Virus record (IMG/VR): IMGVR_UViG_2565956616_000008
DNA length: 37,425 nt
Origin: a virus
Lineage: Duplodnaviria; Heunggongvirae; Uroviricota; Caudoviricetes
Direction: 5' to 3' (one strand)
Shown: in pieces, positions 3,439 through 35,830 of the stretch
Numbering within the stretch: the first letter of the stretch is position 1
Layout: each line of letters begins with the position of its first letter
The notes under the pieces: model-generated
What the model saw: the letters and a program-made list of their open reading frames with translations, nothing else
What the model was told of the DNA's origin: nothing
Databases searched by the model: none
Made by a program: the position numbers and the translations under genes

Positions 3439-3449
3439 AGGGCGTTGTG

Positions 3450-3692: not shown

Positions 3693-3802
3693 GTATATTT
3701 ATCTCATGGCTTGTTCTGATTATTTCGGTGGCCTGCGCCATTGGAATTATGCGAATTATTCATTCAGTAAAAAAGATTGAACGTTTTTTCACTGGTGAAT
3801 AA
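3689..3802 (+). CDS. possible small hydrophobic peptide (37 aa)
   Basis: ATGA overlap with the previous stop; translation MSIFISWLVLIISVACAIGIMRIIHSVKKIERFFTGE has one predicted transmembrane helix; below the ORF-track size cut-off. Confidence 0.3.
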   Translation: MSIFISWLVLIISVACAIGIMRIIHSVKKIERFFTGE

Positions 3803-3895
3803 CGATACAAATAAAACATCAAATTAAATAAGAAAACGTGAAAACCATCCGTATTAACGGAGGTATTCGCACACGCAAATAACGGAGATACAAAA

Positions 3896-4306: not shown

Positions 4307-4329
4307 AGTTACTGGACAAAGGGGGCGCA

Positions 4330-4533
4330 ATGGCAATTAAGCATTTTCCCGTCGTTCGCTTTACCTCCAGAGGGCGCGAATACGAGGTCGACGAACGCCT
4401 GATTACCACTATCGACAAACATCGTTCGGAAAAGGATGCACACCACATCTACCTCACTGACGGCACTTACTTCTGCGCCACTAATGTGGCGCGGGTAAAC
4501 CTTATCCGACAGGTACAGGAGCCACGCAGATGA
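4330..4533 (+). CDS. hypothetical protein
   Basis: 67-aa ORF; AAAGGGGG upstream; stop overlaps next start. Confidence 0.5.
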   Translation: MAIKHFPVVRFTSRGREYEVDERLITTIDKHRSEKDAHHIYLTDGTYFCATNVARVNLIRQVQEPRR

Positions 4534-4796
4534 CCATTCTGGACTACATCGCTACTCATCCGGGGTGTAGCGGCGGAGAGATCGCCGCAGCACTGAATAC
4601 TCCAACCACAGCCATTAATGCTGAGTTACGCCAACTTTGGCGCGGCGGCTTAGTCATCAGAACAAACCGCAGCACAGGTGGTCGCGCTCGCAAAACTGGA
4701 GGCCAGGCTTCTTACCACGTAAACCCGATGCCGTTCGGGTGTAGCAATCCACTTACTCACATGTTTAACCAGCTACTGAAGGAAGCCAGAACATGA
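4530..4796 (+). CDS. hypothetical protein, possible winged-helix DNA-binding fold
   Basis: 88-aa ORF, translationally coupled (ATGA overlaps at both ends). Confidence 0.5.
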   Translation: MTILDYIATHPGCSGGEIAAALNTPTTAINAELRQLWRGGLVIRTNRSTGGRARKTGGQASYHVNPMPFGCSNPLTHMFNQLLKEART

Positions 4797-5092
4797 GCAC
4801 CATCAACCACCAGAAGCTACGCGAACTGGCATTTGCCCTGCAACGAATGGCAACACCTCAAAAATTACTGGCATTTCGCGCAATGCTCTCGCCGTCTGCT
4901 GTGCTGGCACTGCTGGATGAGCTGGAGCACGCCAGAACCATGGCTCCAGCCATTCGCCTGACGCTCCATCATGAAATCGCTGATTTCTGCGCACCACTGG
5001 GTTCGCCTGGTGAACCAGAAACGCCGGAAACAATGCAACGAGAGCTACTGCAACGCATCGACAAGGTTTTTGATTTTTTCCTTAACCAGTAA
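4793..5092 (+). CDS. hypothetical protein
   Basis: 99-aa ORF, coupled to the upstream gene. Confidence 0.5.
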   Translation: MSTINHQKLRELAFALQRMATPQKLLAFRAMLSPSAVLALLDELEHARTMAPAIRLTLHHEIADFCAPLGSPGEPETPETMQRELLQRIDKVFDFFLNQ

Positions 5093-5103
5093 AGGACCGC
5101 GAT

Positions 5104-5316
5104 ATGAACAAAAAGACCTGGTTTCGCGCATACATGTGGGCGCTGGTATGCGTCCTCGTTTCTCTCATTCTGTATGTGGGGCTACTTCCCAGAATGATTT
5201 CATCAGACAGCTCCTTCCTGGTATTGCTGGGCATTTTTGTCGCCTTGCTGTACCCGGCGGGCGTTGTTCGCTTTTTCAGTAACTACATCAAAGCAATTAT
5301 GGAAACCAAACAATGA
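5104..5316 (+). CDS. small inner-membrane protein (two predicted TM helices)
   Basis: 70 aa, two hydrophobic stretches; stop overlaps the start of the SPFH gene. Confidence 0.55.
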   Translation: MNKKTWFRAYMWALVCVLVSLILYVGLLPRMISSDSSFLVLLGIFVALLYPAGVVRFFSNYIKAIMETKQ

Positions 5317-6137
5317 AAAAACTATTACCACTCATCCCTCTCCTGATGACCACACTTCTGGTTGGCTGTGACCGCGTGGAGCCGGGCAATGTAGGCATCA
5401 AAGTCAACAAACTGGGCGACGATAAAGGCGTCGGTGAAGTAGTTGGCGTTGGCCGCTACTGGACAGGCTGGAATACAGAGGTTTACATCTTCCCGACTTT
5501 CAAACAAATGAAGACTTACGATGAGCCGTTCAACTTCCAGATGAGTGACGGCACAACCATCGGCTATCACATCGGCGTGGCCTACAAAGTTGATCCATCC
5601 AAAGTTACCACTGTGTTTCAGACCTACCGCAAAGGCGTGGATGACATTACCGACACTGACCTGCGCCAGAAGATCGCCGATGCACTCAACCGACTGGCCA
5701 GCAAAATGACCACCGATAAGTTTATCGACGGTGGCAAGTCTGAACTGCTGGATTCAGCACTTAAAGACATTCAGTCAGAAATGACACCTATCGGCATTCA
5801 GGTCATGAGCCTCTCTTATGTCGGTAAACCGGAATATCCGCCAACCGTTATCGACAGCATTAACGCCAAAGTCACGGCAAACCAGAAAACCCTGCAACGC
5901 GAACAGGAAGTCAAGCAACGCGAAGCAGAAGCCAACATGTTGCGCGCAGAAGCTGCCGGACAGGCTGATGCCATTCGCACAAAAGCCCAGGCTGAAGCCG
6001 ACGCCATTCGTTTACGCGGTGAAGCTCTGCGCCAGAATCCCGGCGTTATGGAGCTGGAAGCAATCAACAAATGGAACGGCACGCTGCCGCAATACATGAC
6101 CAGCAACACCGCTGTTCCGTTTGTTCCGGTGAAGTAA
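5313..6137 (+). CDS. SPFH/band-7 (HflK/C, stomatin-like) domain lipoprotein
   Basis: 274 aa; signal peptide with lipobox LLVGC; SPFH-like core followed by an Ala/Glu/Arg-rich coiled-coil tail, the usual SPFH architecture. Confidence 0.75.
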   Translation: MKKLLPLIPLLMTTLLVGCDRVEPGNVGIKVNKLGDDKGVGEVVGVGRYWTGWNTEVYIFPTFKQMKTYDEPFNFQMSDGTTIGYHIGVAYKVDPSKVTTVFQTYRKGVDDITDTDLRQKIADALNRLASKMTTDKFIDGGKSELLDSALKDIQSEMTPIGIQVMSLSYVGKPEYPPTVIDSINAKVTANQKTLQREQEVKQREAEANMLRAEAAGQADAIRTKAQAEADAIRLRGEALRQNPGVMELEAINKWNGTLPQYMTSNTAVPFVPVK

Positions 6138-6142
6138 TTAAA

Positions 6143-6190
6143 CCCGGCCAGTGAAAATCGCTGGCCGGAGCAGTATCAGGATTTTTTTTA
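6143..6190 (+). terminator. putative terminator after the SPFH gene
   Basis: Stem CCGGCCAG/CTGGCCGG followed after a spacer by a run of 8 T. Confidence 0.5.
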
Positions 6191-6306
6191 GTATGCCGTT
6201 CTCACAAAAAAACCGCTTGCCATGCCGCAATCAGTCAGGTTACATTTCCGCTGCACCTCATAAAACGGGTGCCGGGTTTCGCAGCCTGCTGACAACCAAA
6301 GCGCAC

Positions 6307-6327
6307 AACCGCGCCAGCGGTTTTTTT
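6307..6327 (+). terminator. rho-independent terminator-like hairpin
   Basis: AACCGC-gcca-GCGGTT stem-loop followed by a 7-T run. Confidence 0.55.
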
Positions 6328-6368
6328 GTGCGTACTGTATTGCCACGTCTTTTTCGCACACGAATTAT

Positions 6369-6444
6369 GGCGGGGCGTACGGGGCCGACTTCGGTCGGGC
6401 CGGGTTCTTTGGTTGCCGGTACTGCGAACCCCGTACGTCTCGCC
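6369..6444 (+). promoter_or_regulatory. Long-stem structured element in the leader of the gene at 6507
   Basis: 6369..6384 pairs with 6429..6444 as a 16-bp stem with two G-T (G-U in RNA) pairs; inside, GCCGAC-TTCG-GTCGG(G)C hairpin with a UUCG tetraloop; possible sigma70-like promoter TTGCCA-17-AATTAT at 6340..6368. Confidence 0.45.
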
Positions 6445-6506
6445 ACCCACAGTTTCGCAGCTCTGGATAGTGAGTTTTCAAAACTTACAACCAAAGAGGC
6501 CACACC

Positions 6507-6737
6507 ATGGCAAACCGCAAACAGCACCGCGCTATCGCGGAGCGTCGTCACATCCAGACTGAAATCAACCGCAGACTTTTCCGCGCATTCCGCGTCGCGC
6601 ATATCATGCACATCAATATGCTGCATGAACGCAGTCACGCACTATCGAACAGCTATTCCGCCTCTGTTTTCAGCTATCTGGCAGATGATCTGCGCGAGCT
6701 TCAAAAGCTCATCCAGCAGCAAAACAAACTCCATTAA
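6507..6737 (+). CDS. small arginine-rich protein
   Basis: 76 aa; AAAGAGG 7 nt upstream; N-terminus ANRKQHRAIAERRHIQTEINRR is arginine-rich. Confidence 0.55.
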   Translation: MANRKQHRAIAERRHIQTEINRRLFRAFRVAHIMHINMLHERSHALSNSYSASVFSYLADDLRELQKLIQQQNKLH

Positions 6738-6809
6738 TTCCTGTTCCGGGCCTTTCCTGCACCTTGCGGCGGGAGGCCTTCGCACATCTGTAACAAGAGG
6801 ATTGCCGCA

Positions 6810-10080: not shown

Positions 10081-10909
10081 ATGAAAATTTGTATCGATGA
10101 CGGCTCCACCAACATCAAGCTGGCATGGACTGAGAACGGCCCAGACGACCGACACGCAATACCAGTACAGCGATGTGAATGTCATTGCCATTCATCACGC
10201 GCTGGTCAAATCAGGCATCACGCCACAGGAGGTGGATGTGGTTGTCACCCTGCCACTGAGCGAGTATTTCGACACAAACGCACAGCCGGACATGACCAAC
10301 ATCAACCGCAAAAAAGCGAACGTTATGCGCCCGGTGGAGTACCAGAACGGCGAAGCATTCACTATCCGTAACGTACGGGTTATGCCTGAATCCATTCCGG
10401 CTGGCTTTAAGGCACTGGCTGACATGAGTCCGTTTGAATCCCTGCTGATTGTGGATTTGGGCGGAACCACGCTGGATGTGGCAAAGGTTCAGGGGCAACT
10501 GGCAGGTATCAGCTAGGTGTTTTGCGATCCACACGTAGGCGTTTCTCTGATGGCCGATGCCGTACTGTCGGTGATGGCCACTAACGGTATGCGCACCAGT
10601 CACCACATCGCCAATACCATTATCGAACATCGCCATGATGAAGCCTGGCTGCGCCAGCACATCCACAATGACGCGCATTACGCCAGCCTGATGGCGGTTA
10701 TTCGTGAAAAGGAAGAAACACTGAAACAACGCGTGATCCGCGCGCTGGCGGGTTTTTCGGGTTACGGGCGGGTGATGGTTGTCGGTGGAGGGGCGGAGAT
10801 TGTGGCACCCGCTATCCGCGAAGCCTGCGGAGTTAATGCGACTTTCATCGCGGACGGGGTGCCACAGTTTGCTCTGGTTAATGGGCTGTACGCAATGGAC
10901 AAGGAGTAA
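10081..10909 (+). pseudogene. ParM/StbA-like actin-type partition ATPase, disrupted by a frameshift and an in-frame TAG
   Basis: N-terminus MKICIDDGSTNIKL in frame 1 (10081..); body with LIVDLGGTTLDV in frame 2 (10097..10516); in-frame TAG at 10514..10516; C-terminus with VMVVGGGAEI continues in the same frame to 10909. Confidence 0.7.
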
Positions 10910-10913
10910 ACCA

Positions 10914-11225
10914 ATGACGACACCAACCAGACGGATAAGTTTCTATCTGAAGCCTGCGGCCGTCAAGAACGAAAGCGAAGCATGCGCCTGGCTGGACAGC
11001 CTTACACCAGAAGCCCGCAAAAGCGGCCAACGCGTGGCTTTTCTGGCCGGGCTGGCACTTCTGAAAATGAATCCGGCAGAGGCTTACCGACTGGCTGCAT
11101 GGGCTGACGATGAGGCGTTATCAGTGACACAAACCAGGACAGAATGCCCCGCGTCACAGCCAGTATCAACCGCACAGATAACCAGTCAGATGGCCGGAAA
11201 TATCCGGGCGTTATTTCCCGAATAA
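10914..11225 (+). CDS. ParR/StbB-like small partition protein (tentative)
   Basis: 103 aa; AAGGAG 7 nt before ATG; pattern RRISFYLKP...LDSL...AFLAGLALLK...LFPE resembles plasmid StbB as recalled; sits directly after the parM-like gene as in parMR loci. Confidence 0.5.
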   Translation: MTTPTRRISFYLKPAAVKNESEACAWLDSLTPEARKSGQRVAFLAGLALLKMNPAEAYRLAAWADDEALSVTQTRTECPASQPVSTAQITSQMAGNIRALFPE

Positions 11226-11288
11226 CACAACATCAGGGCGCATCCGCCCTGATGACTTTAATCCGGGAACATAAACAAGGGGGACACA

Positions 11289-11624
11289 ATGCAACACATT
11301 GACAGAGAAAAAGCGCAGCGACTGATTGAGCGAATGGAAGCGCTGGCGAAAGAAGAAAATGTCAACATCCAAAAAATAGCTGAATGTGGCCAGATAGTTC
11401 TTCGTCGTGAAAAAGACATCAAGCAACTGATGTCTGGCGGAATCAGCAAAACATGGACTTCAGGCAAGAAGACGATTTATTGCAGCTTCTGCAATAAATC
11501 CCAGCACGAAGTCATAAAGGTGATTGCCGGACCGTCTGTTTACATCTGCAATGAGTGCGTGGATTTGTGCAATGAAATTATCAGAAGAGAAGTGACAGAC
11601 CATGAAGAAAAAACGCATGAATGA
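11289..11624 (+). CDS. Small protein with a C-terminal ClpX-type zinc-binding domain (orphan ClpX N-domain)
   Basis: 111 aa; residues [38 protein letters not shown] closely match the ClpX N-terminal C4 zinc-finger dimerisation domain as recalled; no AAA+ module follows; AAGGGGG upstream. Confidence 0.75.
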
Positions 11625-11686
11625 CGAATTTGACGGCTTTTAATTTTATCGGGGCGCACTGTCTCCCCCCGCACGAGGAAAACACG

Positions 11687-12211
11687 ATGAAAAAATACGA
11701 ATACATGCTAATGAAAGAAGCACTGCGGGCTGGTCTGGCTCCCTGTCCTGTATCCGTAGAAGCTGTTGTTGGGAACACGATTTTCCGAACGCTGCGAAAT
11801 CGCGTATCCGTGAAGATGATTCACCAACCACCCAAATCTACCAGCATGATCTATCTGCCGCTGCCCGAGGCTATCAAACTTATGCGTTCGCTGAAATTTG
11901 CGATTTGGATGCAGACACAACTCAACAAAGCGGTGCAAAACACCTTCGTTAAGAAACTGATGCCGGAGCTTGCTGCCAGATGTGCAAAATGTACCAGACC
12001 CGCACTTCAATTTGATCTGTCATTGATTCAACAAGCTACGGAGGCAGAACTGTACCGCCTGTCACCTCTCCATGATGTTCACACGGAAGCCTCAGAAATG
12101 TTCCGGCTCATGTTTCAATTTAATTTTGCCGTTCGACGCACACGCGTTCAGGTCAATCGCATGATGCAGGCGCAGGAAGAGCTGACGCAACACAAAGGAG
12201 GCAACCAGTGA
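11687..12211 (+). CDS. hypothetical protein
   Basis: 174-aa ORF from ATG 11687 (GAGGA 8 nt upstream); track ORF starts earlier at 11621. Confidence 0.5.
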   Translation: MKKYEYMLMKEALRAGLAPCPVSVEAVVGNTIFRTLRNRVSVKMIHQPPKSTSMIYLPLPEAIKLMRSLKFAIWMQTQLNKAVQNTFVKKLMPELAARCAKCTRPALQFDLSLIQQATEAELYRLSPLHDVHTEASEMFRLMFQFNFAVRRTRVQVNRMMQAQEELTQHKGGNQ

Positions 12212-12732
12212 GCAAGATTGACTATCAGGCATTACGCGAACGCTATTCACCTGCGCCAGTACCGAAATGCCCTATTTGCGGCGAGGAAATGTCAATTCAG
12301 CGAATATCTGGAGCACAGGTTGTTTATGCCTGCTCCGGTTATGGTGATGATGGAGATTTCAAAATTGGTCGAACTCTTGCCGACGAACATTATGAAAAAT
12401 CGCGCGTAACAGTGTTGGATGTCGGGGATCCTGAAGTATTGGCGCTACTTGATTGGCTGGAAACTAAAGACAACCGAATCGCTGAACTGGAAAAAATCGC
12501 CACTGACTATGCACTTAAATTCCAGAAAGCACAGGACGCATTAAAGCATGCCGCTTTGCTGCATAGCCGGACGGCGCAACAAACAAATAATTTTGCAGTA
12601 TCGCTTCCGGACATAAGCGAATATTTCATTAATGACGTATTTCAGCCCTTGCGATACGAGCGGGATGTTGAAAGAGCCATCATAAAGGCTGGCGGAAAAG
12701 CATTGTGGCAGGAGAAACACGACGACAGATAA
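12208..12732 (+). CDS. hypothetical protein with N-terminal Cys pairs (possible zinc ribbon) and coiled coil
   Basis: 174 aa; GTG start overlapping the previous stop, AAAGGAGG upstream; CPICGEEM...YACSG at the N-terminus. Confidence 0.55.
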   Translation: MSKIDYQALRERYSPAPVPKCPICGEEMSIQRISGAQVVYACSGYGDDGDFKIGRTLADEHYEKSRVTVLDVGDPEVLALLDWLETKDNRIAELEKIATDYALKFQKAQDALKHAALLHSRTAQQTNNFAVSLPDISEYFINDVFQPLRYERDVERAIIKAGGKALWQEKHDDR

Positions 12733-27376: not shown

Positions 27377-27871
27377 TCAGAACAGTCCCTTAACAGAACT
27401 GACCGCACTGTTAAGGGATGACGCCACCTTATCTTTGAAGCCGGACAGCATATCGCTGAACGATGAGGATTGCAGGCGCTCCCGCAAATCCTCATCACAG
27501 CGTTCAAGGGTCAGTGAAAATTCTATCTTTTTCGCCTTACCGTAGCGATCAAACTCGGAACGGATCGTATTCGTTCCGGTCAGGACATACATGCCGTAAA
27601 TCTGCCCGACGCCATCAATCAGAGGCCAGGGCCGTCCTGTATACGCCTGCGTGGTCAGCAGCGACAGCGACATTTCGCCACCTGTAATTTCAGGATAAAG
27701 CACACCAGAAAGAACGATGCGATCATCACCTGCACCGATATACTGCCAGCTTGCTGAACGGTTAACGCGTTCATTTTTCACATGCCGCCAGCTTTTGTTT
27801 TGCTGTAACTGCTGATGCGGCAGCGTGCGCAGCTCAAAAACAAACATGCCGTAGATCATCATCATGGCCAT
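27377..27871 (-). CDS. U: Tail protein U
   Basis: 164 aa; P2 gpU-like (MAMMMIYGMFVFELRTLPHQ...). Confidence 0.8.
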   Translation of the reverse strand: MAMMMIYGMFVFELRTLPHQQLQQNKSWRHVKNERVNRSASWQYIGAGDDRIVLSGVLYPEITGGEMSLSLLTTQAYTGRPWPLIDGVGQIYGMYVLTGTNTIRSEFDRYGKAKKIEFSLTLERCDEDLRERLQSSSFSDMLSGFKDKVASSLNSAVSSVKGLF

Positions 27872-27877
27872 GTCTCC

Positions 27878-30685
27878 TCAATCTTTATCGTAAAAACTGC
27901 CACGCCCGGCACGGGCGCGCCGTTCCATTTCTGCCCTGACCATTTCACCGACCAGTTTCGCCAGTTCGCGGGGATTCTGTGTAACAACGTTATGCAGATG
28001 AACATGAATTTCACCGCCAAATCCGGAGGCAACAGGCTCCCGGTTACGGGAAGTTGCAGGAACTGATGCCACTGGCGATCGTATGGCCTCCGCCACCGGG
28101 CGGGAGCTGGCCGCAACAACAGGGACCAGCGCCGGAGGCAGCGGAGCCGGAACCACGGGTGTGATATTAATTGCGGGGTCAGGCTTACTGACCTGCGCAA
28201 TCTTCCGCTCCTGCCACTCCCCACGAACAGCAAGTGCGTGGGGCAGGTTCTTAAAGACAATATCGCCGGGGCCAATGCGTTTTTTCGTCTCATCAACCAG
28301 CTTACCTGTGTTATCAGCAATTTTGCTGAGTCTGCGTAGCGTACCGGTATTGCTGTCTGTGAGCGGTTTGTTGTCTTTGGGCTTATCACCTCCGGTGCCA
28401 TTGCCATTTTCCACAGGCTTCGGCGGATTGATTTTCGCCAGGTCCCCCTGAAGCAAGGCAACCTTGTCCTGAAGAATGGCCGCACGCTGTGCGTCTTCGA
28501 TTTTCTTGCGCGCCCTTTCCGCTTCATCCGGAAGCACACCGAGCTTTTCAAGTATCCACGCCAGCGTATCCAGCAACATTTTTGCAGGTGTCAGAACAAG
28601 TTGTAACGCACCGCCAAGAACGTTACCGAATATCTCGCCAGCACTGGTACATTTATCCAGCGTTTCCTTGCTGGACTCCATCGGTGACAGCAGCGATTTA
28701 AACCAGTTAAACACCTGGCTGATCCCGCTTCCGATTGCGTCAAAAACAGGACCAAACCGTTCAAAGGTTTCGCGCAACGGGGTCAGCCTTTCCATAATCC
28801 CGCTGAACACTCCGGCAAAAAATGCCCTGATGGGATCCCAGTATTTCCAGATAAGAACGGCAGCTCCGGCAAGCGCAGCCACAATAAGACCAACCGGACT
28901 GAACAACGCCCCGATAGCGCCTCCCAGTAAAGAAACAGAACCCGTCACCATTCCCCACAGCGCAGGCAACACCCTGACGACATTCATTGACCGGGTCAGG
29001 ATGTCAAAACCAAGACGCAGGGTGGCCAGCTTCCCGTAAAGCACCCCAATAACCAGCGACAACGAGCCAATCGTTGCAGTCATTGCCAGCAACGCACCGC
29101 CTGCTATCAGTAGCTGGCGCGTCAGTACCGGATGGGCCTGCGCCAGCGAGGTGATTTTTTCAAGCACCCGTGTGAACCACTGCGTGACAAAACGCAGCGG
29201 ACCGTCAACCAGATCACTGATGCGAATACGAAGACCTTCCCATGCGCTGTCGAGATTTTTCAGGTCCCCATCAAGATTATCGGCCATTACTTTTGCAACG
29301 CGATCGGCCTCTCCCCTTGCCCCCTGCAATTCTCTGGTCAGTTTTTGCAGCTCTCCTGAACCAGCCGCCGCAACAAGCGTCTGCAAACCAACGAACGCCT
29401 CTTCTCCGGCGATGTCCTTGAAGAAGGAGACCTGGTCCACCTGTCCGTATTTTTGTGTCGCCTTATAGAGATCAAGCAGCACATCCTCCATCGGGCGCAT
29501 TTTGCCTCTGGCGTCAGCAACTGACACCCCAAGCTCTTTCAGCGCATCAGCCGCAGCTTTTGGCGGTGATGCAAGGCGGGACAGACTTGCGCGCATGGCC
29601 GTACCAGCATCGCTTCCACGAAGACCATTATTGGCAAGCATCCCGGCCATGGCTGCCGCTTCTTCAAGACTGATACCAAGTTTTGCGGCAACCGGACCGG
29701 TATACTTCATGGTTTCGCCCAGCGCGCGTAAATCAGTATTGGTCCGGGTGAATGCCGCTGTCAGCGTATCGCCAACCCGGTCCATTTGATCGGCTGTCAG
29801 GTTGAACTGTGTGAGGATATTGGAGCCTATATCAGCCGTCTCGCCGAGTTCGACGCCACCTGCCAGCGCCATATTAAGAACACCGGGCAATGCGGCCTGA
29901 ATGGCCTGCGGAGTAAAACCAGCCATTGCCAGAAAGCTCTGCCCACTGGCGGCATCACTCGCAGTAAACTGTGTTTCAGAGCCAAGTTTTAACGCCTGCT
30001 CACGCAGCGCCTTAAACTGCGGGCTGTTTTTGTCGATTCGCGTCAGTGCCTGAACGCGGGACATCTCTTTGCCGAACCCGATCGCAGGCTGCAAAAAACG
30101 CCCGGCAGCATAGCCGCCCGCCGCTGCCGCACCAATTGCCAGCGCACCACCTGTTTTCAGTTTTCCCGCTGTTTCCTGCGCGCGCGAATACCGCTCACGC
30201 GCCCGTGTTACACGCGCAAGCGCCTGCCGTTCGCGTTCAAGCTGGTTGTTGTACTGTTCGGTGCGTCTGATGGCCTGCTGGATGGTGTTATCGCTGCCTG
30301 TCAGGGAAATGCCGTGGCGTTTCAGCTCTCCGCCAAGCTCCCGCATTTTCTGAATTTCCCGTGTGCGCGATTCATTCAGGCGTTCAAGCCGGGTGCTTAA
30401 CTGCTGCATCAGCTTTTGTTGTTTTTCGCTGAGCACTGTACCCGTGCGTTGTAACTGATTAAGGGCGTTAAGCTGGCGTCGTGCTTTCACGATGCCCGCA
30501 TCCGCTTTACTGACAGCGTCACGGGCGCGCTCAAATGATCGCGCCTGACGCTCGAGATTTTTGATCGCCCCCTGCGTTCGCTGGATGGAGTCACCAAACT
30601 GCCCCATCAGGCGGCGGGCGTTTTCGGCAGGCCGGGTCAGCCTGTCAACGGCGCTGAAAGCGACCCGGATATCAAGAGTCTTCAT
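27878..30685 (-). CDS. T: Tail tape measure protein
   Basis: Long (about 935 aa) Ala-rich ORF with coiled-coil N-terminal half and hydrophobic middle; exact start uncertain (ATG 30685 or 30694; track gives a GTG at 30721). Confidence 0.85.
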   Translation of the reverse strand: MKTLDIRVAFSAVDRLTRPAENARRLMGQFGDSIQRTQGAIKNLERQARSFERARDAVSKADAGIVKARRQLNALNQLQRTGTVLSEKQQKLMQQLSTRLERLNESRTREIQKMRELGGELKRHGISLTGSDNTIQQAIRRTEQYNNQLERERQALARVTRARERYSRAQETAGKLKTGGALAIGAAAAGGYAAGRFLQPAIGFGKEMSRVQALTRIDKNSPQFKALREQALKLGSETQFTASDAASGQSFLAMAGFTPQAIQAALPGVLNMALAGGVELGETADIGSNILTQFNLTADQMDRVGDTLTAAFTRTNTDLRALGETMKYTGPVAAKLGISLEEAAAMAGMLANNGLRGSDAGTAMRASLSRLASPPKAAADALKELGVSVADARGKMRPMEDVLLDLYKATQKYGQVDQVSFFKDIAGEEAFVGLQTLVAAAGSGELQKLTRELQGARGEADRVAKVMADNLDGDLKNLDSAWEGLRIRISDLVDGPLRFVTQWFTRVLEKITSLAQAHPVLTRQLLIAGGALLAMTATIGSLSLVIGVLYGKLATLRLGFDILTRSMNVVRVLPALWGMVTGSVSLLGGAIGALFSPVGLIVAALAGAAVLIWKYWDPIRAFFAGVFSGIMERLTPLRETFERFGPVFDAIGSGISQVFNWFKSLLSPMESSKETLDKCTSAGEIFGNVLGGALQLVLTPAKMLLDTLAWILEKLGVLPDEAERARKKIEDAQRAAILQDKVALLQGDLAKINPPKPVENGNGTGGDKPKDNKPLTDSNTGTLRRLSKIADNTGKLVDETKKRIGPGDIVFKNLPHALAVRGEWQERKIAQVSKPDPAINITPVVPAPLPPALVPVVAASSRPVAEAIRSPVASVPATSRNREPVASGFGGEIHVHLHNVVTQNPRELAKLVGEMVRAEMERRARAGRGSFYDKD

Positions 30686-30908
30686 TGTCTGCATTCCCGC
30701 TACGAAGTGCCGCCCGCTCACGCCAGCTAACCACTTCGCCGGGCGTCATCATGAAGATTTCGGCGGGCGACCAGTTAAAAATGGCGGCAATATCCGCCAC
30801 CAGATCTTCGATGTGCTCAAAGCACACCAGGGTGATTACGCTGCCGTCTCCTGCACGCTCTTCGCGCCAGAGTCTGGCTCGCTCATAAAATTTACAGCCA
30901 CAGCGCAC
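30672..30908 (-). CDS. E' extension frame of the tail assembly chaperone (E+E' product by -1 frameshift)
   Basis: ORF in the -1 frame overlapping the 3' end of E (30836..30908), as for P2 E/E'; candidate slippery heptamer A_AAT_TTT in the overlap. Confidence 0.55.
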   Translation of the reverse strand: MRCGCKFYERARLWREERAGDGSVITLVCFEHIEDLVADIAAIFNWSPAEIFMMTPGEVVSWRERAALRSGNADNEDS

Positions 30909-31210
30909 AACTGAATAAAATCGCGTGACGACATTTTTTTAATCATCACTTCATCCAGTCGTGGCGAGGTCACGCGAGGCAACAGCGTGAACATGGTATC
31001 CGCTTTCAGATTCAGCACATCAGACAGCGACAGACCACGCAGGGATCCAGCCTGCTCAATAGCCCCGGTGATCTCCACATACGTGATTTTTTCGCCACCA
31101 CGCTCAATTGGTCGGGTCAGTTTTACGCCACGTTCGACAGCCATATCCTCAACTGCCGTCACATTATCCGCCACGGTGTTATTCCGGGTTTCAGTATCGA
31201 TGTCTTTCAT
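30836..31210 (-). CDS. E: Tail assembly chaperone E
   Basis: 124 aa; position between tube and tape measure genes; AAGGAG upstream. Confidence 0.8.
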   Translation of the reverse strand: MKDIDTETRNNTVADNVTAVEDMAVERGVKLTRPIERGGEKITYVEITGAIEQAGSLRGLSLSDVLNLKADTMFTLLPRVTSPRLDEVMIKKMSSRDFIQLCAVAVNFMSEPDSGAKSVQETAA

Positions 31211-31265
31211 CTGTTGTCTCCTTTTCAGTCAGAGGCGACGCACTGCGCCGCCAGCATATTACTTA

Positions 31266-31778
31266 TCAGCCAAGCCCAAGCGCGGAACGGATGCGATCGG
31301 GCACAATGTCCTTGCCGTCCTTCCGGTAAATGAAGTTCAGCAGGTCAATCTCCCACAACGGGCGATCGTTAACACTCAGCTTGTAGTAGGTGTTTTTAAT
31401 GGCGTAAGTGTGTGATGTGGCTTCGCCCTGTTTGGCTTCCCCCATATCAATTTCCGTCACACGTCCGCGCATTTCGACTTCATACAGGTCGCTTTCTGCA
31501 TCGGTGTAGTATTCACCCGCAAAACGCAGCAGCGTGCCGTCAATCGTGCCGCCATACTTAAGGAACAGCTCACGAACTGCGCCCCCCATGACAAAGCTCG
31601 CATCAAGCGCGGAGTCGTCCAGACCGAGATCAATACTTACCGCACCCATCATGCCACCACCCCGGTAGCTGTCGGTTTTGCGCGTCAGCTTAGGCAGAGT
31701 GACGGACGTCACCTTACCCACTTCGTTTTCACCATCCACAAACAGCGTAAAAAAGCGAAGATGTTTTGGCACAGCCAT
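31266..31778 (-). CDS. FII: Tail tube protein
   Basis: 170 aa; follows the sheath gene with overlapping stop/start. Confidence 0.85.
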   Translation of the reverse strand: MAVPKHLRFFTLFVDGENEVGKVTSVTLPKLTRKTDSYRGGGMMGAVSIDLGLDDSALDASFVMGGAVRELFLKYGGTIDGTLLRFAGEYYTDAESDLYEVEMRGRVTEIDMGEAKQGEATSHTYAIKNTYYKLSVNDRPLWEIDLLNFIYRKDGKDIVPDRIRSALGLG

Positions 31779-32962
31779 CAGGCACCTCCCAGCACCGCAA
31801 ATGCGGGTTCAAAGTATTCATCAGTAAACGTCTGGTAAAGCTCCATGTCTTCCAGTGGCGGAACGGGCGTATATTTGTAGCGAATACGCACACGTCCCTG
31901 ACGTAAATCCGTGGTGCTGTTATCCACCACGTCATACCAGCACTCCGCGCCAATCAGTTTCCCGGCAGTCACCAGTGAATCCAGTTTTGCCCTGATGGCA
32001 CTGATAACATCCTTCACATTCGCAGGCGTCAGTGGACTGTCGATGGTTTCAAACTGCGCTTCCGCAATTGAATCAGCCAGCACCTGTGCGGTTCGGGTAT
32101 ACACCTCAAAGATGTAGGCGTTCGTTTCCGGTGTGCGGTTACCCCAGAAGCGGAACCCGTTGCGACGAATAATGGTCGTGATTTCTTTGTTGTTGAGGCT
32201 GTTGGCATCGCTGTCTTCGGCCTGCAACGACCAGAACACATGCCTGGACATTCCCAGCACATTTTTAACCGGAACGTTGGACAGCGATTTGTGCCAGCCC
32301 TGCTCATGGTCAATGTACGCACGAAGGCCGCACGCATAAGCAGGCGCGGGGAACGTTTCGTTTTTGCCACTTTTCGGGTTGTAGGCGATGAAGTCAGGCC
32401 ATAAGAGCATCACCTCACGTTCGTTGAATTTCTGGCGGTAGGTAATCGCCTCAGCCATCGTGTTACAACCATGACATGTGGCATACACAAACGCGCGCAG
32501 TTTACCTGCAATCACGCACAGGGATTTTGTTACCGCCTCCGTGTCCAGCTCCGGCGCGGCCAGAATACGCGGACGGTATCCGATGCTTTCATCCTGCTCT
32601 GCAACAAGCAGCGCATACATCCCCGTATAGCTGCCGTCATCCTCAGAACCACCGATAACCAGTTGATCCTGCGTCTTTCCGTCTTCTTCTTTGTGTTCAG
32701 CCACGCGAACGACGATCACCTTTGTGCTCACCTGGTCTGCGATGGCCTTAAGCGCACGATAAAGCGTCCCCGTTGTTCCGCATTTTCCCAGCACGTCATT
32801 GACGCGGGTCAGCAGTGTGGGCTTGTTCAGCGGGAACAGCTCCGCGTCCGCATCATCCGCCGTTGCCACGATACCGATAACGCTGGAATCAACATCGTTA
32901 ATCGCTGTTACCAGGTCGGTATTTTCCGTAACACGGGCACCATGAAAACGAGTTTCACTCAT
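31778..32962 (-). CDS. FI: Tail sheath protein
   Basis: 394 aa; segments FPLNKP, RAF, WPDF, GWHK.LSN, RR.GFRFWGNRT match P2 gpFI as recalled; AAGGGG upstream. Confidence 0.9.
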   Translation of the reverse strand: MSETRFHGARVTENTDLVTAINDVDSSVIGIVATADDADAELFPLNKPTLLTRVNDVLGKCGTTGTLYRALKAIADQVSTKVIVVRVAEHKEEDGKTQDQLVIGGSEDDGSYTGMYALLVAEQDESIGYRPRILAAPELDTEAVTKSLCVIAGKLRAFVYATCHGCNTMAEAITYRQKFNEREVMLLWPDFIAYNPKSGKNETFPAPAYACGLRAYIDHEQGWHKSLSNVPVKNVLGMSRHVFWSLQAEDSDANSLNNKEITTIIRRNGFRFWGNRTPETNAYIFEVYTRTAQVLADSIAEAQFETIDSPLTPANVKDVISAIRAKLDSLVTAGKLIGAECWYDVVDNSTTDLRQGRVRIRYKYTPVPPLEDMELYQTFTDEYFEPAFAVLGGA

Positions 32963-33119: not shown

Positions 33120-34229
33120 ATGACCGACACCACCATGCAATTGCTCAGCCAGGGCACAGACCCCGTAAAAATGCCGGATTTTGATATTCTCGCGGAGGGT
33201 AAAACGCTGTCCGGCGTGGCAGAGCGCCTGATGAGCCTGTCGCTGACCGACAACCGGGGATTTGAGGCAGACCAGCTCACCATCACGCTGGATGATGCGG
33301 ATGGTCAGTTGCAGCTACCGCCACGGGGCGCGCGCCTGACGGTTCTCATTGGCTGGAAAGGCGAACCGCTGACAGAAAAAGGGTCTTACATTGTTGATGA
33401 AATCGCTCACGAAGGACCGCCGGACAGGCTGACTGTTTCAGCCAGAAGCGCAGATTTTCGGGATGAATTTAACGTTAAACGTGAGGTGTCCTGGCATGAT
33501 GTGACCGTTGAGCGCGTGGTATCCGCCATCGCTCATCGGTACGGTCTGAAACCGCAAATCAGCGAAATGCTGATGGATATCGAAATCGACCACGCCGACC
33601 AGACCGAAGAAAGCGACATGTCCTTTCTTACGCGCATGGCGGAAATGCTGGGCGCAATCACCACGGTAAAAAGCGGTAATCTGTTATTCATTATGCCAGG
33701 CGGTGGCGTGAACGCACAGGGCCAGCCGTTGCCCTCGTTCGCCATTACACGCAGCAGCGGCGATCGCCATCAGTTCCGTATTGCTGACCGCGAGGCGTAT
33801 ACGGGGGTACGCGCCTACTGGCTTGATCTTAATTACGGGAAAAAGAAAAAAGTCAGCGTGAAACGCCGTAAACCGCCAAAACCCAAAAAGGAGAAAAGCA
33901 GCAGCCGTGAAGGTGATTATATGGAAGGCGCGGAAGGCAATGTGTTTGTGTTACGCAAGACTTATCAGAACGAGCAGGCAGCAAGACGCGCAGCGGCGGC
34001 AAAGTGGCAGCAGCTACAACGCGGAGCCGCATCATTCTCCATCACGCTGGCGCGTGGACGTGCAGAACTCTACCCTGAAATGCATGGCACGGTGACAGGC
34101 TTTAAAAGTGACATCGACAATCAGGACTGGATTATTGCAAAAGCCGAGCACACCATTGATAACAGCGGCTTTACCACGCAGCTTGAGCTTGAAGCAAAAA
34201 TCCCAGAATGGATAGCAGAAACAGAGTAA
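33120..34229 (+). CDS. D: Late control / tail protein D
   Basis: P2 gpD family features (MQLLSQ...LSLTDNRG.EADQL.I.LDD.DG); ATG at 33120 preceded by GGGAGGGAG (track ORF starts further upstream). Confidence 0.85.
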   Translation: MTDTTMQLLSQGTDPVKMPDFDILAEGKTLSGVAERLMSLSLTDNRGFEADQLTITLDDADGQLQLPPRGARLTVLIGWKGEPLTEKGSYIVDEIAHEGPPDRLTVSARSADFRDEFNVKREVSWHDVTVERVVSAIAHRYGLKPQISEMLMDIEIDHADQTEESDMSFLTRMAEMLGAITTVKSGNLLFIMPGGGVNAQGQPLPSFAITRSSGDRHQFRIADREAYTGVRAYWLDLNYGKKKKVSVKRRKPPKPKKEKSSSREGDYMEGAEGNVFVLRKTYQNEQAARRAAAAKWQQLQRGAASFSITLARGRAELYPEMHGTVTGFKSDIDNQDWIIAKAEHTIDNSGFTTQLELEAKIPEWIAETE

Positions 34230-34423
34230 ACAACTTAGATGCATTAGCCCTGACATTTGCTAACGCGCCTACAGCAAGAATCATAATCAATCTGACAGCC
34301 TACCCGGTGTCAAAATCAGAAGTACCTTACATTAGAATATGTTAATTTGTAGCAAACAAATTTACACACAAATAATTACTGCTGAAATAGCGCCCCATAA
34401 ATGCCATGTCAGAGGACCATGTT

Positions 34424-35089
34424 ATGAATATGCAAATTTTTATTGGACCAACAGCCACAGTTGCCGCGGTCTGCCTTGCTGCATATTTTGCTTTACGAAA
34501 TGAGCGTAAAAAGAAAGCGCTTGAGATTAGAACAACTCAACTAGATCGAATATCTGAGCTAGTAAGCAGAGCATCTACCAATTTGATGCAATATACAGGT
34601 ACTCTTGCCTCTATACTGGAAGCGCACACCAAAGAAAATTATCTACCAGACCACAAATTTAACATTAATGAAATTAGCAAATGGAAAAATGATCTCGATA
34701 AGAGAGAAGATTGGGCTATTGATATACAGCAACTAAGAACATGCCAGCACAACCTGGAGTTTCATCGTGAAAAAGAATGGGCTGAATGGGAAAAAATAAT
34801 TCCACCATTACTTGATAAAATTAACCAATTTTTTCTCATATCCAAGCCGGGGCAACCTGTTACGCTTATAAATGGTCAAAATAAAACAGTCGATGAACTG
34901 ATTGCTTTCTCAATATACTTACAACAACAAACAGAAGAAATTAAAGCGGTACGTAAGCTGCTACTTTCTCAAATGAGAGAAGAATTCATCGAGTTAACTA
35001 GCTTTGAACCTGTCACAATATTTAGCTTATTAAAATCAATAAAGAAAAGTGTCCTGCAATTTTTCTGTATCAGTGCTCTTAAAAATTGA
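34424..35089 (+). CDS. AT-rich cargo gene: membrane-anchored hypothetical protein
   Basis: 221 aa from ATG 34424 (AGAGGA 7 nt upstream); N-terminal TM helix (IFIGPTATVAAVCLAAYFAL) then a charged helical domain; AT-rich relative to flanking phage DNA; own terminator downstream. Confidence 0.55.
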   Translation: MNMQIFIGPTATVAAVCLAAYFALRNERKKKALEIRTTQLDRISELVSRASTNLMQYTGTLASILEAHTKENYLPDHKFNINEISKWKNDLDKREDWAIDIQQLRTCQHNLEFHREKEWAEWEKIIPPLLDKINQFFLISKPGQPVTLINGQNKTVDELIAFSIYLQQQTEEIKAVRKLLLSQMREEFIELTSFEPVTIFSLLKSIKKSVLQFFCISALKN

Positions 35090-35106
35090 CGCTCTGTTAC
35101 AAGCAA

Positions 35107-35134
35107 CCCCAGTGTTAAACTGGGGTTATTCTTG
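35107..35134 (+). terminator. rho-independent terminator after the cargo gene
   Basis: CCCCAGT-gttaa-ACTGGGG hairpin followed by TTATTCTT. Confidence 0.6.
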
Positions 35135-35238
35135 CTAAGAGACCTTTATACGGCATAAGTAAACAAAGAGAACTATCAGTTGGAGTCTGAGCAAGTTCAG
35201 CCTAAACTAGCGACAGTACCACGTTAAGGGAGGTCGCT

Positions 35239-35499
35239 ATGTTCCGTTGTCCGCTTTGTGGCGCATCTGCCCGTATCCGCACCAGTCGTCCGGAAAATGA
35301 TTCAAACACCGTGCGGCAAAAGTATTACCAGTGCAACAACCTGGAATGCGGCGTATGCTTCTCAACACTGGAAGCTTTCCATAAATTCACATCGAAACAC
35401 GCCTCCGGCATCCACTCTTCAGAAGGTATCCCGTGGCATGAGCTGCCAGCTTCACACAGGGGAAACAATCAGATGAGCTTGCCTTTACCTCAGAATTAA
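35239..35499 (+). CDS. ogr: Ogr/Delta-type zinc-finger late-gene activator
   Basis: 86 aa; CPLCGASARIRTSR...YYQCNNLECGVCF four-Cys pattern as in the P2 Ogr family; GGGAGG upstream. Confidence 0.85.
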   Translation: MFRCPLCGASARIRTSRPENDSNTVRQKYYQCNNLECGVCFSTLEAFHKFTSKHASGIHSSEGIPWHELPASHRGNNQMSLPLPQN

Positions 35500-35559
35500 C
35501 AGGCAGAATTGCCGGAGTAACAAAAAAGCGATAGATTACGCGCGGGTGCCTTTCGGCTG

Positions 35560-35772
35560 ATGGTCGGAGGGAATACCCGAAGGCCGGATGTGGAAAGGCC
35601 CCGGAAAACATTTTTGTTTAACCGAGGCCCTGACCATACAACCTTCGCAAGTCGTAGGTTAGCGCCTCTCCAACAAAGGAGCAAGCGCTATGTCGCAAAA
35701 ATCGCTTATGGCCATCACGTTCTGCGTGACGGTAATCCTCATCATCTGGATGCTGCACGGTTCGCTGTGTGA
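35560..35772 (+). CDS. mok-like overlapping reading frame of the hok-type locus
   Basis: 70-codon ORF in a different frame overlapping the leader and 5' part of the hok-like gene, the arrangement known for mok/hok. Confidence 0.35.
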   Translation: MVGGNTRRPDVERPRKTFLFNRGPDHTTFASRRLAPLQQRSKRYVAKIAYGHHVLRDGNPHHLDAARFAV

Positions 35773-35830
35773 AATACGGATGAGCTTCTGGGGAGCGGAG
35801 TTTGCGGCGTTCTTACAGTGTAAGCAGTAA
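35690..35830 (+). CDS. hok: Hok/Gef-family type I toxin (46 aa)
   Basis: Translation MSQKSLMAITFCVTVILIIWMLHGSLCEIRMSFWGAEFAAFLQCKQ: TM helix then conserved SLCEIR...E(F/V)AAF as in Hok/Gef as recalled; AAGGAG 8 nt upstream; below the ORF-track size cut-off. Confidence 0.8.
   Translation: MSQKSLMAITFCVTVILIIWMLHGSLCEIRMSFWGAEFAAFLQCKQ

What the first reader, a model, noticed from the sequence alone, without database searches (positions are those of the whole stretch)
34230..35238. AT-rich cargo gene inserted between late gene D and ogr
About 1 kb of markedly AT-rich DNA with its own AT-rich upstream region, strong RBS and intrinsic terminator encodes a 221-aa protein with one N-terminal transmembrane helix and a charged helical domain. 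P2 has no gene between D and ogr as far as I recall, and the composition suggests horizontal acquisition. Membrane-anchored single-gene cargo at prophage ends often mediates superinfection exclusion or abortive infection.
Basis: partly seen in the sequence, partly recalled or inferred. Interest (0 to 1): 0.55.

Follow-up and report, generated by a model that had tools for sequence, protein, structure and literature searches.

The report
Membrane-anchored cargo gene in P2-like prophage
A P2-like prophage of E. coli carries, between its tail gene D and its late-gene regulator ogr, a swappable 1-kb foreign cassette that encodes an uncharacterised membrane-anchored protein, most likely an anti-phage exclusion or defence factor, at a site where related prophages carry known defence genes or nothing.

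Summary
Window 34230-35238 is the lowest-GC kilobase of the window (0.377 vs 0.525). It holds one real gene (34424-35089, 221 aa), a GAGGA ribosome-binding site and a strong terminator hairpin.

Against an empty-site relative, the insertion is 34240-35207. About 60% of related E. coli prophages sampled have only 42 bp here. Others carry unrelated AT-rich cargo: bSEFIR/TIR, DUF2971 (PADLOC PDC-S31), DUF3800, a HEPN-like protein, ParA-like, ComF, YecA. D/ogr is therefore a framed cargo hotspot.

The protein matches no Pfam, NCBIfam, PHROGs, PADLOC or PDB entry. Its family is tiny (23 clusters among 1.84 billion representatives) and confined to mobile elements of Enterobacterales: P2-like and lambdoid prophages, plasmids, an ICE, and defence islands next to CBASS, TIR and KAP NTPase genes. 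It never has a conserved partner gene.

The AlphaFold model (pLDDT 86) shows an N-terminal transmembrane helix that continues into a four-helix bundle, predicted to face the cytoplasm. The transmembrane and juxtamembrane helix is the most conserved part; the bundle varies.

Best reading: a stand-alone membrane-anchored phage exclusion or defence protein. This function is inferred, not shown. It is a new member of a known kind, of moderate interest.

The parts
33120..34229 (+). Late tail gene D (baseplate hub), left conserved flank of the hotspot. The exact start is uncertain (the ORF is open from 32988).
   Evidence: Pfam Phage_GPD 2.6e-17. ORF list. RefSeq annotation of the identical locus.
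34230..34239 (+). Left copy of the short direct repeat ACAACTTAGA that brackets the cassette. These are the last bases shared with the empty site.
   Evidence: BLAST breakpoints against the empty-site locus L009. Junction alignments of nine cassette types.
34240..35207 (+). The inserted cassette (968 bp) relative to an empty D/ogr junction. It is AT-rich.
34240..34423 (+). 5' non-coding region that travels with the gene. It contains a left frame motif shared by all cassette types (TGCATTAGCCC...) and a 35-bp block (34327-34361) nearly identical in the Kluyvera lambdoid copy. This block is a candidate promoter or operator.
   Evidence: No strong sigma-70 match.
34412..34416 (+). Ribosome-binding site GAGGA, 7 nt before the ATG.
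   Evidence: Read from the sequence.
34424..35089 (+). Cargo gene, 221 aa (RefSeq WP_001057124.1, 'hypothetical protein'). The protein is a membrane-anchored four-helix bundle.
34436..34531 (+). Codons for residues 5-36: the transmembrane helix (5-24) plus the basic juxtamembrane stretch (RNERKKKALEIR). This is the most conserved part of the family.
35105..35137 (+). Intrinsic terminator of the cargo gene (9-bp G+C-rich stem, 5-nt loop, U-rich tail). It also separates D/cargo transcription from ogr.
35180..35208 (+). Putative ogr promoter carried at the right end of the cassette: TTGGAG (35180-35185), 17 nt, TAAACT (35203-35208). It is positionally homologous to TTGGAA-17-TAGAAT in the other cassettes. 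The right copy of the bracketing repeat (CAGCCTAAA, 35198-35206) overlaps it.
   Evidence: Inference from conservation. The promoter scan did not call it in this window (7/12 match).
35239..35499 (+). ogr (Ogr/Delta zinc-finger late activator), right conserved flank of the hotspot.

Best explanation
This is a single-gene 'moron' cassette sitting in a variable cargo hotspot at the D/ogr junction of a P2-like (Xuanwuvirus-like) prophage.

Shown:
- The cassette (34240-35207) is a horizontally exchanged unit, bracketed by a short direct repeat.
- It sits in a conserved frame that all cargo types at this site share. The frame includes a rebuilt ogr promoter at its right end.
- The gene is real and under purifying selection.
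- Its product belongs to a small, unannotated family found only on mobile elements and in defence islands of Enterobacterales.
- The gene always stands alone, with no conserved partner.

Predicted:
- The protein is anchored in the inner membrane by one N-terminal helix (N-terminus out, bulk in the cytoplasm).
- That helix continues without a break into a cytoplasmic four-helix bundle.

Inferred mechanism:
- The protein protects the lysogen, and so the prophage, against other phages by acting at the inner membrane.
- The conserved transmembrane/juxtamembrane helix face is the constant 'business end'. It either self-associates or engages a conserved membrane component.
- The fast-evolving cytoplasmic bundle recognises an invader-derived cue.
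- My preferred version is sensor-effector, abortive-infection-like: recognition drives oligomerisation of the membrane helices and loss of membrane integrity or energisation.
- A direct block of DNA entry is the main alternative.
- The gene can be expressed from its own upstream region in the lysogen, and by read-through from the D late promoter during lytic growth.
For: Cargo status:
- The flanks occur in 1202 of 5426 complete E. coli genomes. This cassette is in 57-58 of them.
- In an evenly spaced sample of 60 matches, 34 sites were empty (42-bp spacer). At least 8 other unrelated cargo types occupy the same slot, all with GC 0.33-0.42.
- ogr differs at 1 of 261 nt between two prophages whose cargo alleles differ at 58 of 666 nt. 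This points to mosaic exchange.

Defence association:
- Slot-mates include bSEFIR (PADLOC 1.2e-43) and DUF2971/PDC-S31 (5.6e-27), and a weak HEPN-like protein.
- Homologues lie next to SMODS+S_4TM CBASS, CAP12-TIR, KAP NTPase, RES and nSTAND genes, in a tmRNA island, on plasmids and in an ICE.
- Homologues also occupy the classic lambdoid moron site between Q/tR' and the holin.
- No neighbour is conserved.

Protein:
- AF2 pLDDT 86, pTM 0.72. Helix 4-69 runs from the membrane segment into a four-helix bundle.
- The positive-inside rule holds in all 16 family members: N-flank net charge between -1 and +1 (-1 or 0 in 15 of 16), and 4-6 Lys/Arg after the helix.
- P9, T12, V16, A20 and L24 lie on one helix face and, with R25-N26-E27-x2-K30-K31-x-L33-E34, form the most conserved region (mean top-residue frequency 0.68-0.77, against 0.33-0.46 elsewhere).
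- dN/dS is 0.33, and substitutions cluster in the bundle.

Autonomy:
- 78% nucleotide homology to the Kluyvera copy covers about 135-185 bp upstream of the ATG but not the terminator.
- In Kluyvera the gene lies antisense to the phage operon, so it needs its own promoter there.
Against: - There are no functional data anywhere. No paper mentions the protein.
- There is no homology to any known defence or exclusion protein. PADLOC, Pfam, PHROGs and NCBIfam are negative for all 16 members. hhalign probability is below 1% against lambda SieB and RexB, P22 SieA and SieB, and HK97 gp15.
- The hotspot also carries cargo not obviously defensive (ParA-like, YecA, ComF), so sharing the slot is weak evidence.
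- A single, only moderately hydrophobic helix (Kyte-Doolittle 1.3-2.2) is a modest basis for a pore.
- No clear sigma-70 promoter was found.
- On two plasmids the homologue sits directly beside rep/par genes. This would also fit a maintenance role.
Confidence: 0.5

Rival explanations
1. Classical superinfection exclusion. The inner-membrane protein blocks genome entry of incoming phages by interfering from the membrane or cytoplasmic face with the injection conduit, or with a host inner-membrane factor the phages need. The cell is not killed.
For: The architecture is an inner-membrane anchor with no enzymatic domain. The conserved membrane helix face suggests a specific contact with a conserved membrane partner. 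[quoted passage not shown] Homologues on an ICE and on plasmids would fit a general 'keep foreign DNA out' role.
Against: The same family is carried by P2-like myoviruses and lambdoid phages, whose injection machineries differ, and by chromosomal defence islands and plasmids. Known Sie proteins usually target relatives of their carrier. There is no homology to SieA or HK97 gp15. SieA has three membrane helices. The bulk of this protein faces the cytoplasm, away from the incoming conduit.
Confidence: 0.2
2. A non-defence accessory function for mobile elements or the host, for example a membrane-associated maintenance or partition helper, conjugative entry exclusion, or a host-fitness factor.
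For: On two plasmids the homologue lies directly downstream of rep/par genes, and in an ICE it lies inside the transfer gene cluster. The D/ogr slot also hosts ParA-like, YecA and ComF cargo. No defence HMM matches.
Against: There is no conserved partner or context across the family. Several homologues sit in bona fide defence islands rather than next to maintenance genes. A prophage integrated in the chromosome does not need a plasmid-type maintenance factor at this site.
Confidence: 0.15
3. A late-expressed phage membrane function that helps the carrier phage's own lytic cycle, such as control of lysis timing or an antiholin-like role.
For: The gene is co-oriented with late transcription in two phage types. 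In this prophage no terminator lies between D and the gene. In four lambdoid contigs it is the first gene after the tR'-like hairpin and sits directly upstream of holin-endolysin-Rz.
Against: The gene is absent from about 95% of closely related P2-like prophages. In this window it is far from the lysis genes. In the Kluyvera prophage it is antisense to phage transcription. It is present on plasmids, an ICE and chromosomal islands that have no lysis cassette.
Confidence: 0.07
4. A decaying or spurious ORF in junk AT-rich DNA.
For: Some copies are disrupted: IS1 insertions in two genomes (H16/H17) and a frameshifted copy in phage record 520873.
Against: dN/dS is 0.33 with dS 0.20. Full-length homologues at 20-40% identity share invariant residues. 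The AF2 model is confident. A ribosome-binding site and terminator are present.
Confidence: 0.02

Closest known systems
Lysogenic-conversion and defence cargo of P2-like phages (old/tin in the gpA-gpQ hotspot, Z/fun in the tail-gene hotspot; Rousset et al. 2022, PMC9122126; iLund4u preprint 10.1101/2024.10.15.618418; PMC13586616)
   Same: AT-rich accessory genes sit between conserved core genes. Different prophages carry different cargo at the same site, much of it anti-phage. [quoted passage not shown] Either could include this site.
   Different: The site here is specifically the D/ogr junction. 'ogr' does not occur in any of the hotspot papers I checked (term counts); 'gpD' is absent from the two I searched for it. 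Unlike the main hotspot, this site is usually empty. Its cassettes share a fixed frame with a rebuilt ogr promoter. The cargo protein matches none of the described systems.
P22 SieA (inner-membrane superinfection exclusion protein; PMC10883804)
   Same: A small prophage-encoded inner-membrane protein with no enzymatic domain, acting alone. It is a plausible functional analogue.
   Different: SieA has three predicted membrane helices and a conserved FxRYPxEAxxFNK motif. This protein has one helix plus a 190-residue cytoplasmic bundle. hhalign probability is 0.7%.
Lambda/P22 SieB and lambda RexAB (prophage abortive-infection systems acting at the membrane)
   Same: Prophage-encoded, membrane-linked, and they protect the lysogen against heterologous phages. 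This is the preferred functional analogy: it works like them.
   Different: No sequence relationship (hhalign probability 0.2-0.7%). RexB is polytopic and needs RexA. This protein stands alone.
HK97 gp15 moron
   Same: A promoter-gene-terminator 'moron' inserted among tail genes, encoding a small membrane protein (annotated 'moron product' with its own terminator).
   Different: gp15 is 62 aa against 221 aa here, with no similarity.
Four-helix-bundle sensor domains of chemoreceptors and histidine kinases (Tar/Tsr, NarX, MCP2201, Adeh_2942)
   Different: Sequence identity is 5-10%, and there is no Pfam 4HB_MCP hit. Those domains are periplasmic and are followed by a second membrane helix and signalling domains. 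This bundle is predicted to be cytoplasmic and has neither. Generic helical bundles, including de novo designs, score equally well.

Membership tests
Prophage moron / hotspot cargo cassette | Presence/absence polymorphism between conserved core genes in otherwise collinear relatives | tested here: met
   Empty site with a 42-bp spacer in most relatives. The insertion is 34240-35207.
Prophage moron / hotspot cargo cassette | Unrelated alternative cargo at the same junction | tested here: met
   bSEFIR/TIR, DUF2971, DUF3800, HEPN-like, ParA-like, ComF+hypothetical and YecA.
Prophage moron / hotspot cargo cassette | Atypical base composition | tested here: met
   GC 0.377 against 0.525; the lowest-GC kilobase of the window.
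Prophage moron / hotspot cargo cassette | Own promoter and terminator | tested here: inconclusive
   The terminator is clear. No good sigma-70 match was found. A promoter is inferred from the conserved upstream block and the antisense placement in Kluyvera.
Known anti-phage defence systems (PADLOC-DB v2.0.0) | Significant match to a defence protein HMM | tested here: not met
   The best hit is E = 0.027 to an REase_II model over 33 residues. No model is shared across the 16 family members beyond that marginal REase_II hit, which appears in 2 of them.
Known anti-phage defence systems | Experimentally shown protection against phage | not testable with these tools
   Needs plaque and liquid-infection assays.
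Superinfection exclusion proteins SieA / SieB / RexB / HK97 gp15 | Sequence homology to a characterised member | tested here: not met
   hhalign probabilities 0.2-0.7%.
Superinfection exclusion proteins | Inner-membrane location | tested here: inconclusive
   Predicted only: one hydrophobic helix, the positive-inside rule and the AF2 model.
Superinfection exclusion proteins | Block of DNA entry or of phage development | not testable with these tools
   Needs experiments.
4HB_MCP-type sensor domains | Pfam 4HB_MCP profile match; periplasmic location between two membrane helices | tested here: not met
   No Pfam hit. There is a single membrane helix and the predicted orientation is cytoplasmic. 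The similarity is a generic fold only.
Holin / antiholin | Small membrane protein encoded in the lysis cassette | tested here: not met
   In this window the gene lies between D and ogr, not with the lysis genes. It is next to a holin only in four lambdoid contigs. There is no PHROGs hit.

The most novel reading that the evidence does not exclude
The gene is the founding member of a new single-protein anti-phage defence family of Enterobacterales mobile elements. In this reading a conserved transmembrane/juxtamembrane helix (P-x2-T-x3-V-x3-A-x3-LRNE-x2-KK-x-LE) acts as a membrane-disrupting or membrane-target-binding effector, and a rapidly diversifying cytoplasmic four-helix bundle acts as the phage sensor. 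It would also follow that the D/ogr junction is a distinct, framed cassette hotspot, with flanking repeats and a built-in ogr promoter, that can be mined for further unknown systems (DUF3800, the HEPN-like 340-aa protein, YecA).
Probability: 0.3. Interest if true: 0.6.

Novelty: new member of a known kind. Interest (0 to 1): 0.45.

Why it matters
Prophage hotspots are now a main source of new bacterial immune systems. This work adds three things.

- A cheap, well-defined candidate: one 666-bp gene with native flanks. It is present in the reference EPEC strain E2348/69 and in porcine ETEC strains, and it matches nothing in current defence catalogues.
- A family signature that points to a membrane-level mechanism.
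- A precise description of a less-studied P2-like hotspot, whose cassettes share a fixed frame and whose other occupants include validated defence genes.

If the protein does defend, it would extend the short list of single-protein membrane-anchored defences. It would also help explain differences in phage susceptibility among pathogenic E. coli. If it does not, the D/ogr site is still a useful marker of prophage mosaicism.

Tried and rejected
- Family searches. Pfam, NCBIfam, PHROGs and PADLOC on the protein, and Pfam, PADLOC and PHROGs on all 16 family members, found nothing consistent.
- PDB sequence profile search. No hit below E = 0.03.
- First AF2 run with 4 close sequences. pLDDT 46, unusable. 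It was rescued by adding distant homologues.
- hhalign against lambda SieB and RexB, P22 SieA and SieB, and HK97 gp15. All negative.
- Genome-contig scan with the family alignment.
- Literature. No mention of the protein accessions, no supplements held for the 2026 NAR paper, and nothing specific to E2348/69.
- Conserved-neighbour search. Only two related islands share a CBASS, so no partner gene emerged.
- Metal site. A C107/H109/H114 site was considered and rejected, because only H114 is invariant.
- Signal peptide. Considered and rejected, because the positive charges follow rather than precede the hydrophobic segment.
- My D-gene dN/dS figure is invalid (indels put the comparison out of register) and is not used.

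Full report
**What the window is.** The window is 100% identical to the chromosome of E. coli strain 1190. It covers a P2-like prophage integrated next to serS. The closest phage record belongs to Peduoviridae, genus Xuanwuvirus. The integrase lies at 1-1008. The gene order at the right end is D (+), cargo (+), ogr (+), hok/sok (+), then serS (-). Unlike in P2, the FI-FII-E-T-U block lies on the minus strand, so D is transcribed divergently from it.

**Check of the observation.**
- D ends at 34229 and ogr starts at 35239.
- The 1009 bp between them have GC 0.377, against 0.525 for the whole window. This is essentially the lowest-GC kilobase of the window.
- One ORF fills the gap. The start at 34424 is supported by a GAGGA 7 nt upstream and by the RefSeq annotation. 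The product is 221 aa.
- A 9-bp G+C-rich hairpin with a U-rich tail follows at 35105-35137. The extended hairpin folds at -23.3 kcal/mol, z = -4.75.
- P2 itself has an 81-bp D-ogr spacer that holds only the ogr promoter.
The one weak point is the promoter. No sigma-70 consensus match was found in 34230-34423, and a relaxed scan gave only 8/12 matches.

**It is swappable cargo in a hotspot.**
- A search with D-3' + cargo + ogr found the flanks in 1202 of 5426 complete E. coli genomes. The full cassette is in only 57 of them. The cassette alone is in 58, always on the chromosome.
- In the evenly spaced sample of 60 matches: 34 sites were empty, 3 had this cargo, 9 had other small cassettes, 10 matched D only, and 4 matched ogr only. 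The three D-only sites I inspected held larger cassettes.
- The alternative cargoes inspected are:
  - DUF2971 (PADLOC candidate PDC-S31, 5.6e-27);
  - a TIR protein (PADLOC bSEFIR, 1.2e-43);
  - DUF3800, with or without IS5;
  - a 340-aa protein with a sub-threshold HEPN match;
  - a ParA-like ATPase;
  - ComF plus a hypothetical protein;
  - YecA.
- All these cassettes have GC 0.33-0.42, against 0.52 for the empty spacer.
- Compared with the empty site, the insertion here is 34240-35207.
- The same cassette occurs in prophages integrated at different sites: serS here and ihfA in E2348/69.
- ogr differs at 1 of 261 nt between these two prophages, while the cargo ORF differs at 58 of 666 nt. 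This is the mosaic pattern expected of a recombination hotspot.

**The cassettes share a frame.**
- All cargo types begin with ...CAACTTAGA|TG(C/T)ATTAG(C/T)(C/T)CA... and a (T/C)(T/C)ACAG about 40 nt in.
- All but the IS5-interrupted DUF3800 cassette (L038), whose upstream part is replaced by IS5 sequence, end with ...CAGTTGGA(A/G)T-17 nt-TAGAAT AGCGGCAGCACCACGTTAAGGGAGGTCGCT ATG(ogr).
- The right-end element has the form of a sigma-70 promoter (TTGGAA-17-TAGAAT). In the window it reads TTGGAG 35180-35185 and TAAACT 35203-35208.
- In the empty site the same TAGAAT spans the junction. Each cassette therefore re-supplies a -35 element for ogr. This is inference from conservation.
- The sequence CAACTTAGA is repeated at both cassette ends. 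Deletion between the two copies would regenerate the empty junction exactly.
- In a P2-like Salmonella prophage, ogr is transcribed in all conditions tested (PMC7067206). The site therefore sits beside an active promoter.

**The protein family.**
- No Pfam, NCBIfam, PHROGs or PADLOC family matches the protein. The same is true of its 16 diverse relatives in Pfam, PADLOC and PHROGs.
- A word-indexed search of 5.8 billion clusters found 7 relatives.
- Exhaustive HMMER against 1.84 billion representatives found 23.
- A profile search named hosts only in Enterobacterales: E. coli, Kluyvera, Klebsiella, Pseudescherichia, Citrobacter, Salmonella and Leclercia.
- Homologues also occur on Pantoea, Erwinia, Winslowiella and Klebsiella plasmids.
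- The only deposited phage record with the gene is the prophage-derived 'phage 520873', where it is frameshifted.

**Genomic contexts of homologues.**
- Four lambdoid viral contigs carry a 34-35% identical homologue. In three it lies between the antiterminator Q and its tR'-like hairpin upstream and holin-endolysin-Rz downstream; in the fourth (L021) other moron genes also lie between these. This is the classic lambdoid moron position.
- The 72% identical Kluyvera copy lies in a lambdoid prophage. It is antisense to the nin/Q genes and sits beside a colicin-domain gene.
- Other homologues lie:
  - beside Rep3 or ParA on plasmids;
  - between traC and traU in a Salmonella ICE;
  - in an integrase-bearing island at smpB/tmRNA;
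  - in chromosomal islands next to SMODS+S_4TM (CBASS), CAP12-TIR, KAP NTPase, RES and nSTAND genes.
- An all-against-all comparison of neighbours found no conserved partner. The gene works alone.
- Nucleotide homology between the window and the Kluyvera copy (78%) runs from about 135-185 bp upstream of the ATG to 7 bp past the stop. It includes a nearly identical 35-bp block (34327-34361) but not the terminator.
- Because the Kluyvera copy is antisense to phage transcription, this upstream region presumably carries the gene's own promoter (inference).
- More distant homologues carry a different conserved upstream motif, AACAGCATTTAC...TATAGT.

**Structure and conservation.**
- With 16 sequences AlphaFold2 gave pLDDT 86 and pTM 0.72. 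One helix runs from residue 4 to 69. Further helices (81-93, 101-136, 156-192) form a four-helix bundle. A less confident C-terminal amphipathic helix spans 199-220.
- Residues 5-24 are the only segment of transmembrane-level hydrophobicity.
- In all 16 members the short N-tail has net charge between -1 and +1 (-1 or 0 in 15 of 16), and the helix is followed by 4-6 Lys/Arg. By the positive-inside rule the bundle should therefore face the cytoplasm.
- The most conserved part of the family is this helix and its basic continuation: P9, T12, V16, A20, L24, R25, N26, E27, K30, K31, L33, E34. The membrane residues line one helix face.
- In the bundle only F113, H114 and W122 are near-invariant.
- dN/dS between the two E. 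coli alleles is 0.33, and changes are concentrated in the bundle.

**Interpretation.**
- Firmly supported: this is a horizontally exchanged, single-gene accessory cassette in a cargo hotspot, and it encodes a real membrane-anchored protein of an unannotated, mobile-element-restricted family.
- Inferred: the function. The company the gene keeps points to inter-element conflict. Validated and candidate defence genes share its slot. CBASS, TIR and KAP NTPase islands surround its relatives. It occupies moron sites in two unrelated phage types.
- The combination of a conserved membrane helix face and a variable cytoplasmic bundle fits a constant effector joined to a diversifying recognition module.
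- I favour an abortive-infection-like sensor-effector acting at the inner membrane over a homotypic injection block. The reason is that the family is shared by phages with different injection machineries and by non-phage elements. This preference is weak.
- No terminator separates D from the gene. It should therefore also be co-transcribed late, from the D promoter, and terminated before ogr (inference).

**Comparison with the literature.**
- P2-like hotspots at gpA-gpQ (old/tin) and in the tail genes (Z/fun) are well described (PMC9122126; preprint 10.1101/2024.10.15.618418).
[quoted passage not shown] PMC13586616 reports defence loci downstream of GpL and near the att site. The D/ogr junction probably falls inside these broad intervals.
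- 'ogr' occurs in none of these three papers (term counts); 'gpD' is absent from the two I searched for it, and the protein accessions are in no paper.
- Verdict: an ordinary kind of thing, prophage hotspot cargo, carrying an uncharacterised and easily testable candidate. It is a new member of a known kind, and the interest is moderate.

Noticed in passing
window 35544-35830: A hok/gef-family toxin gene (46 aa, 35690-35830) follows ogr. A sok-like antisense RNA match lies at 35544-35700 (Rfam RF01794, 41.4 bits, below the gathering score of 59, E = 5.7e-7). It is conserved next to ogr in every related prophage inspected.
   Followed up: partly
window 34230-34260 and 35170-35238; loci L004-L008, L037-L039: All cargo types at the D/ogr site share the same left frame (about 45 bp), and all but the IS5-interrupted L038 share the full right frame (about 60 bp). 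They are bracketed by a CAACTTAGA direct repeat. The right frame looks like a rebuilt ogr promoter (TTGGAA-17-TAGAAT). Deletion between the repeats would give the empty junction exactly. How cassettes are exchanged within this frame is unexplained.
   Followed up: partly
window 34327-34361; L025 4900-4935: A 35-bp block upstream of the cargo gene (TTACATTAGAATATGTTAATTTGTAGCAAACAAAT) is nearly identical in the Kluyvera lambdoid copy, although the surrounding identity is 78%. It has no clean sigma-70 match. It is a possible operator or unusual promoter.
   Followed up: partly
L029, L034, L035, L036, about 60-130 bp upstream of the homologue: Distant homologues in defence islands, a tmRNA island and an ICE share a different conserved upstream motif, AACAGCATTTAC(N24-26)TATAGT, and a CAGGAAAT ribosome-binding region. 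The motif looks like a promoter that travels with the gene.
   Followed up: no
L021-L024 (lambdoid viral contigs), around 5850-6750: Homologues at 34-35% identity lie in the moron region between antiterminator Q with its tR'-like hairpin and the holin. In L022 the homologue is the first gene of the late transcript.
   Followed up: partly
window 27377-32962 versus 33120-34229: The tail genes FI, FII, E, T and U lie on the minus strand and D on the plus strand. D is therefore divergent from the sheath gene, unlike the co-directional F-E-T-U-D-ogr operon of P2.
   Followed up: partly
window 10097-12732: The classical gpA-gpQ hotspot of this prophage carries a ParM-like gene split into two ORFs (10097-10516 and 10517-10909), a StbB/Plasmid_stab_B gene (10779-11225), an unannotated 196-aa ORF and an Ead/Ea22-like ORF. 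None matches PADLOC.
   Followed up: partly
window 1508-6137: The second and fourth lowest-GC stretches of the window (around 1807-4014, GC 0.40-0.43) hold ORFs 2034-2456, 3037-3438 and 3896-4306, which match no family. An SPFH/Band 7 gene lies at 5313-6137. This may be further cargo in the early region.
   Followed up: no
L025 3077-4652 (Kluyvera prophage): A 408-aa protein with a colicin pore-forming domain and a convergent 100-aa ORF lie 350 bp upstream of the homologue inside a lambdoid prophage.
   Followed up: no
hits H16, H17; L003 6171-6569: Some copies of the cargo gene are inactivated. IS1 is inserted in strains AR_0128 and AR_0118, and the copy in the 'phage 520873' record is frameshifted. 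That record also has IS100 in its tail sheath gene.
   Followed up: no
L001 5147-6000 (= window about 33376-34229): RefSeq annotates D as a truncated 267-aa 'VgrG/Pvc8 family' protein plus an overlapping pseudo-fragment. The ORF is in fact open from at least 33120 and matches Phage_GPD across positions 48-304 of the 305-position profile. This appears to be an annotation artefact.
   Followed up: partly
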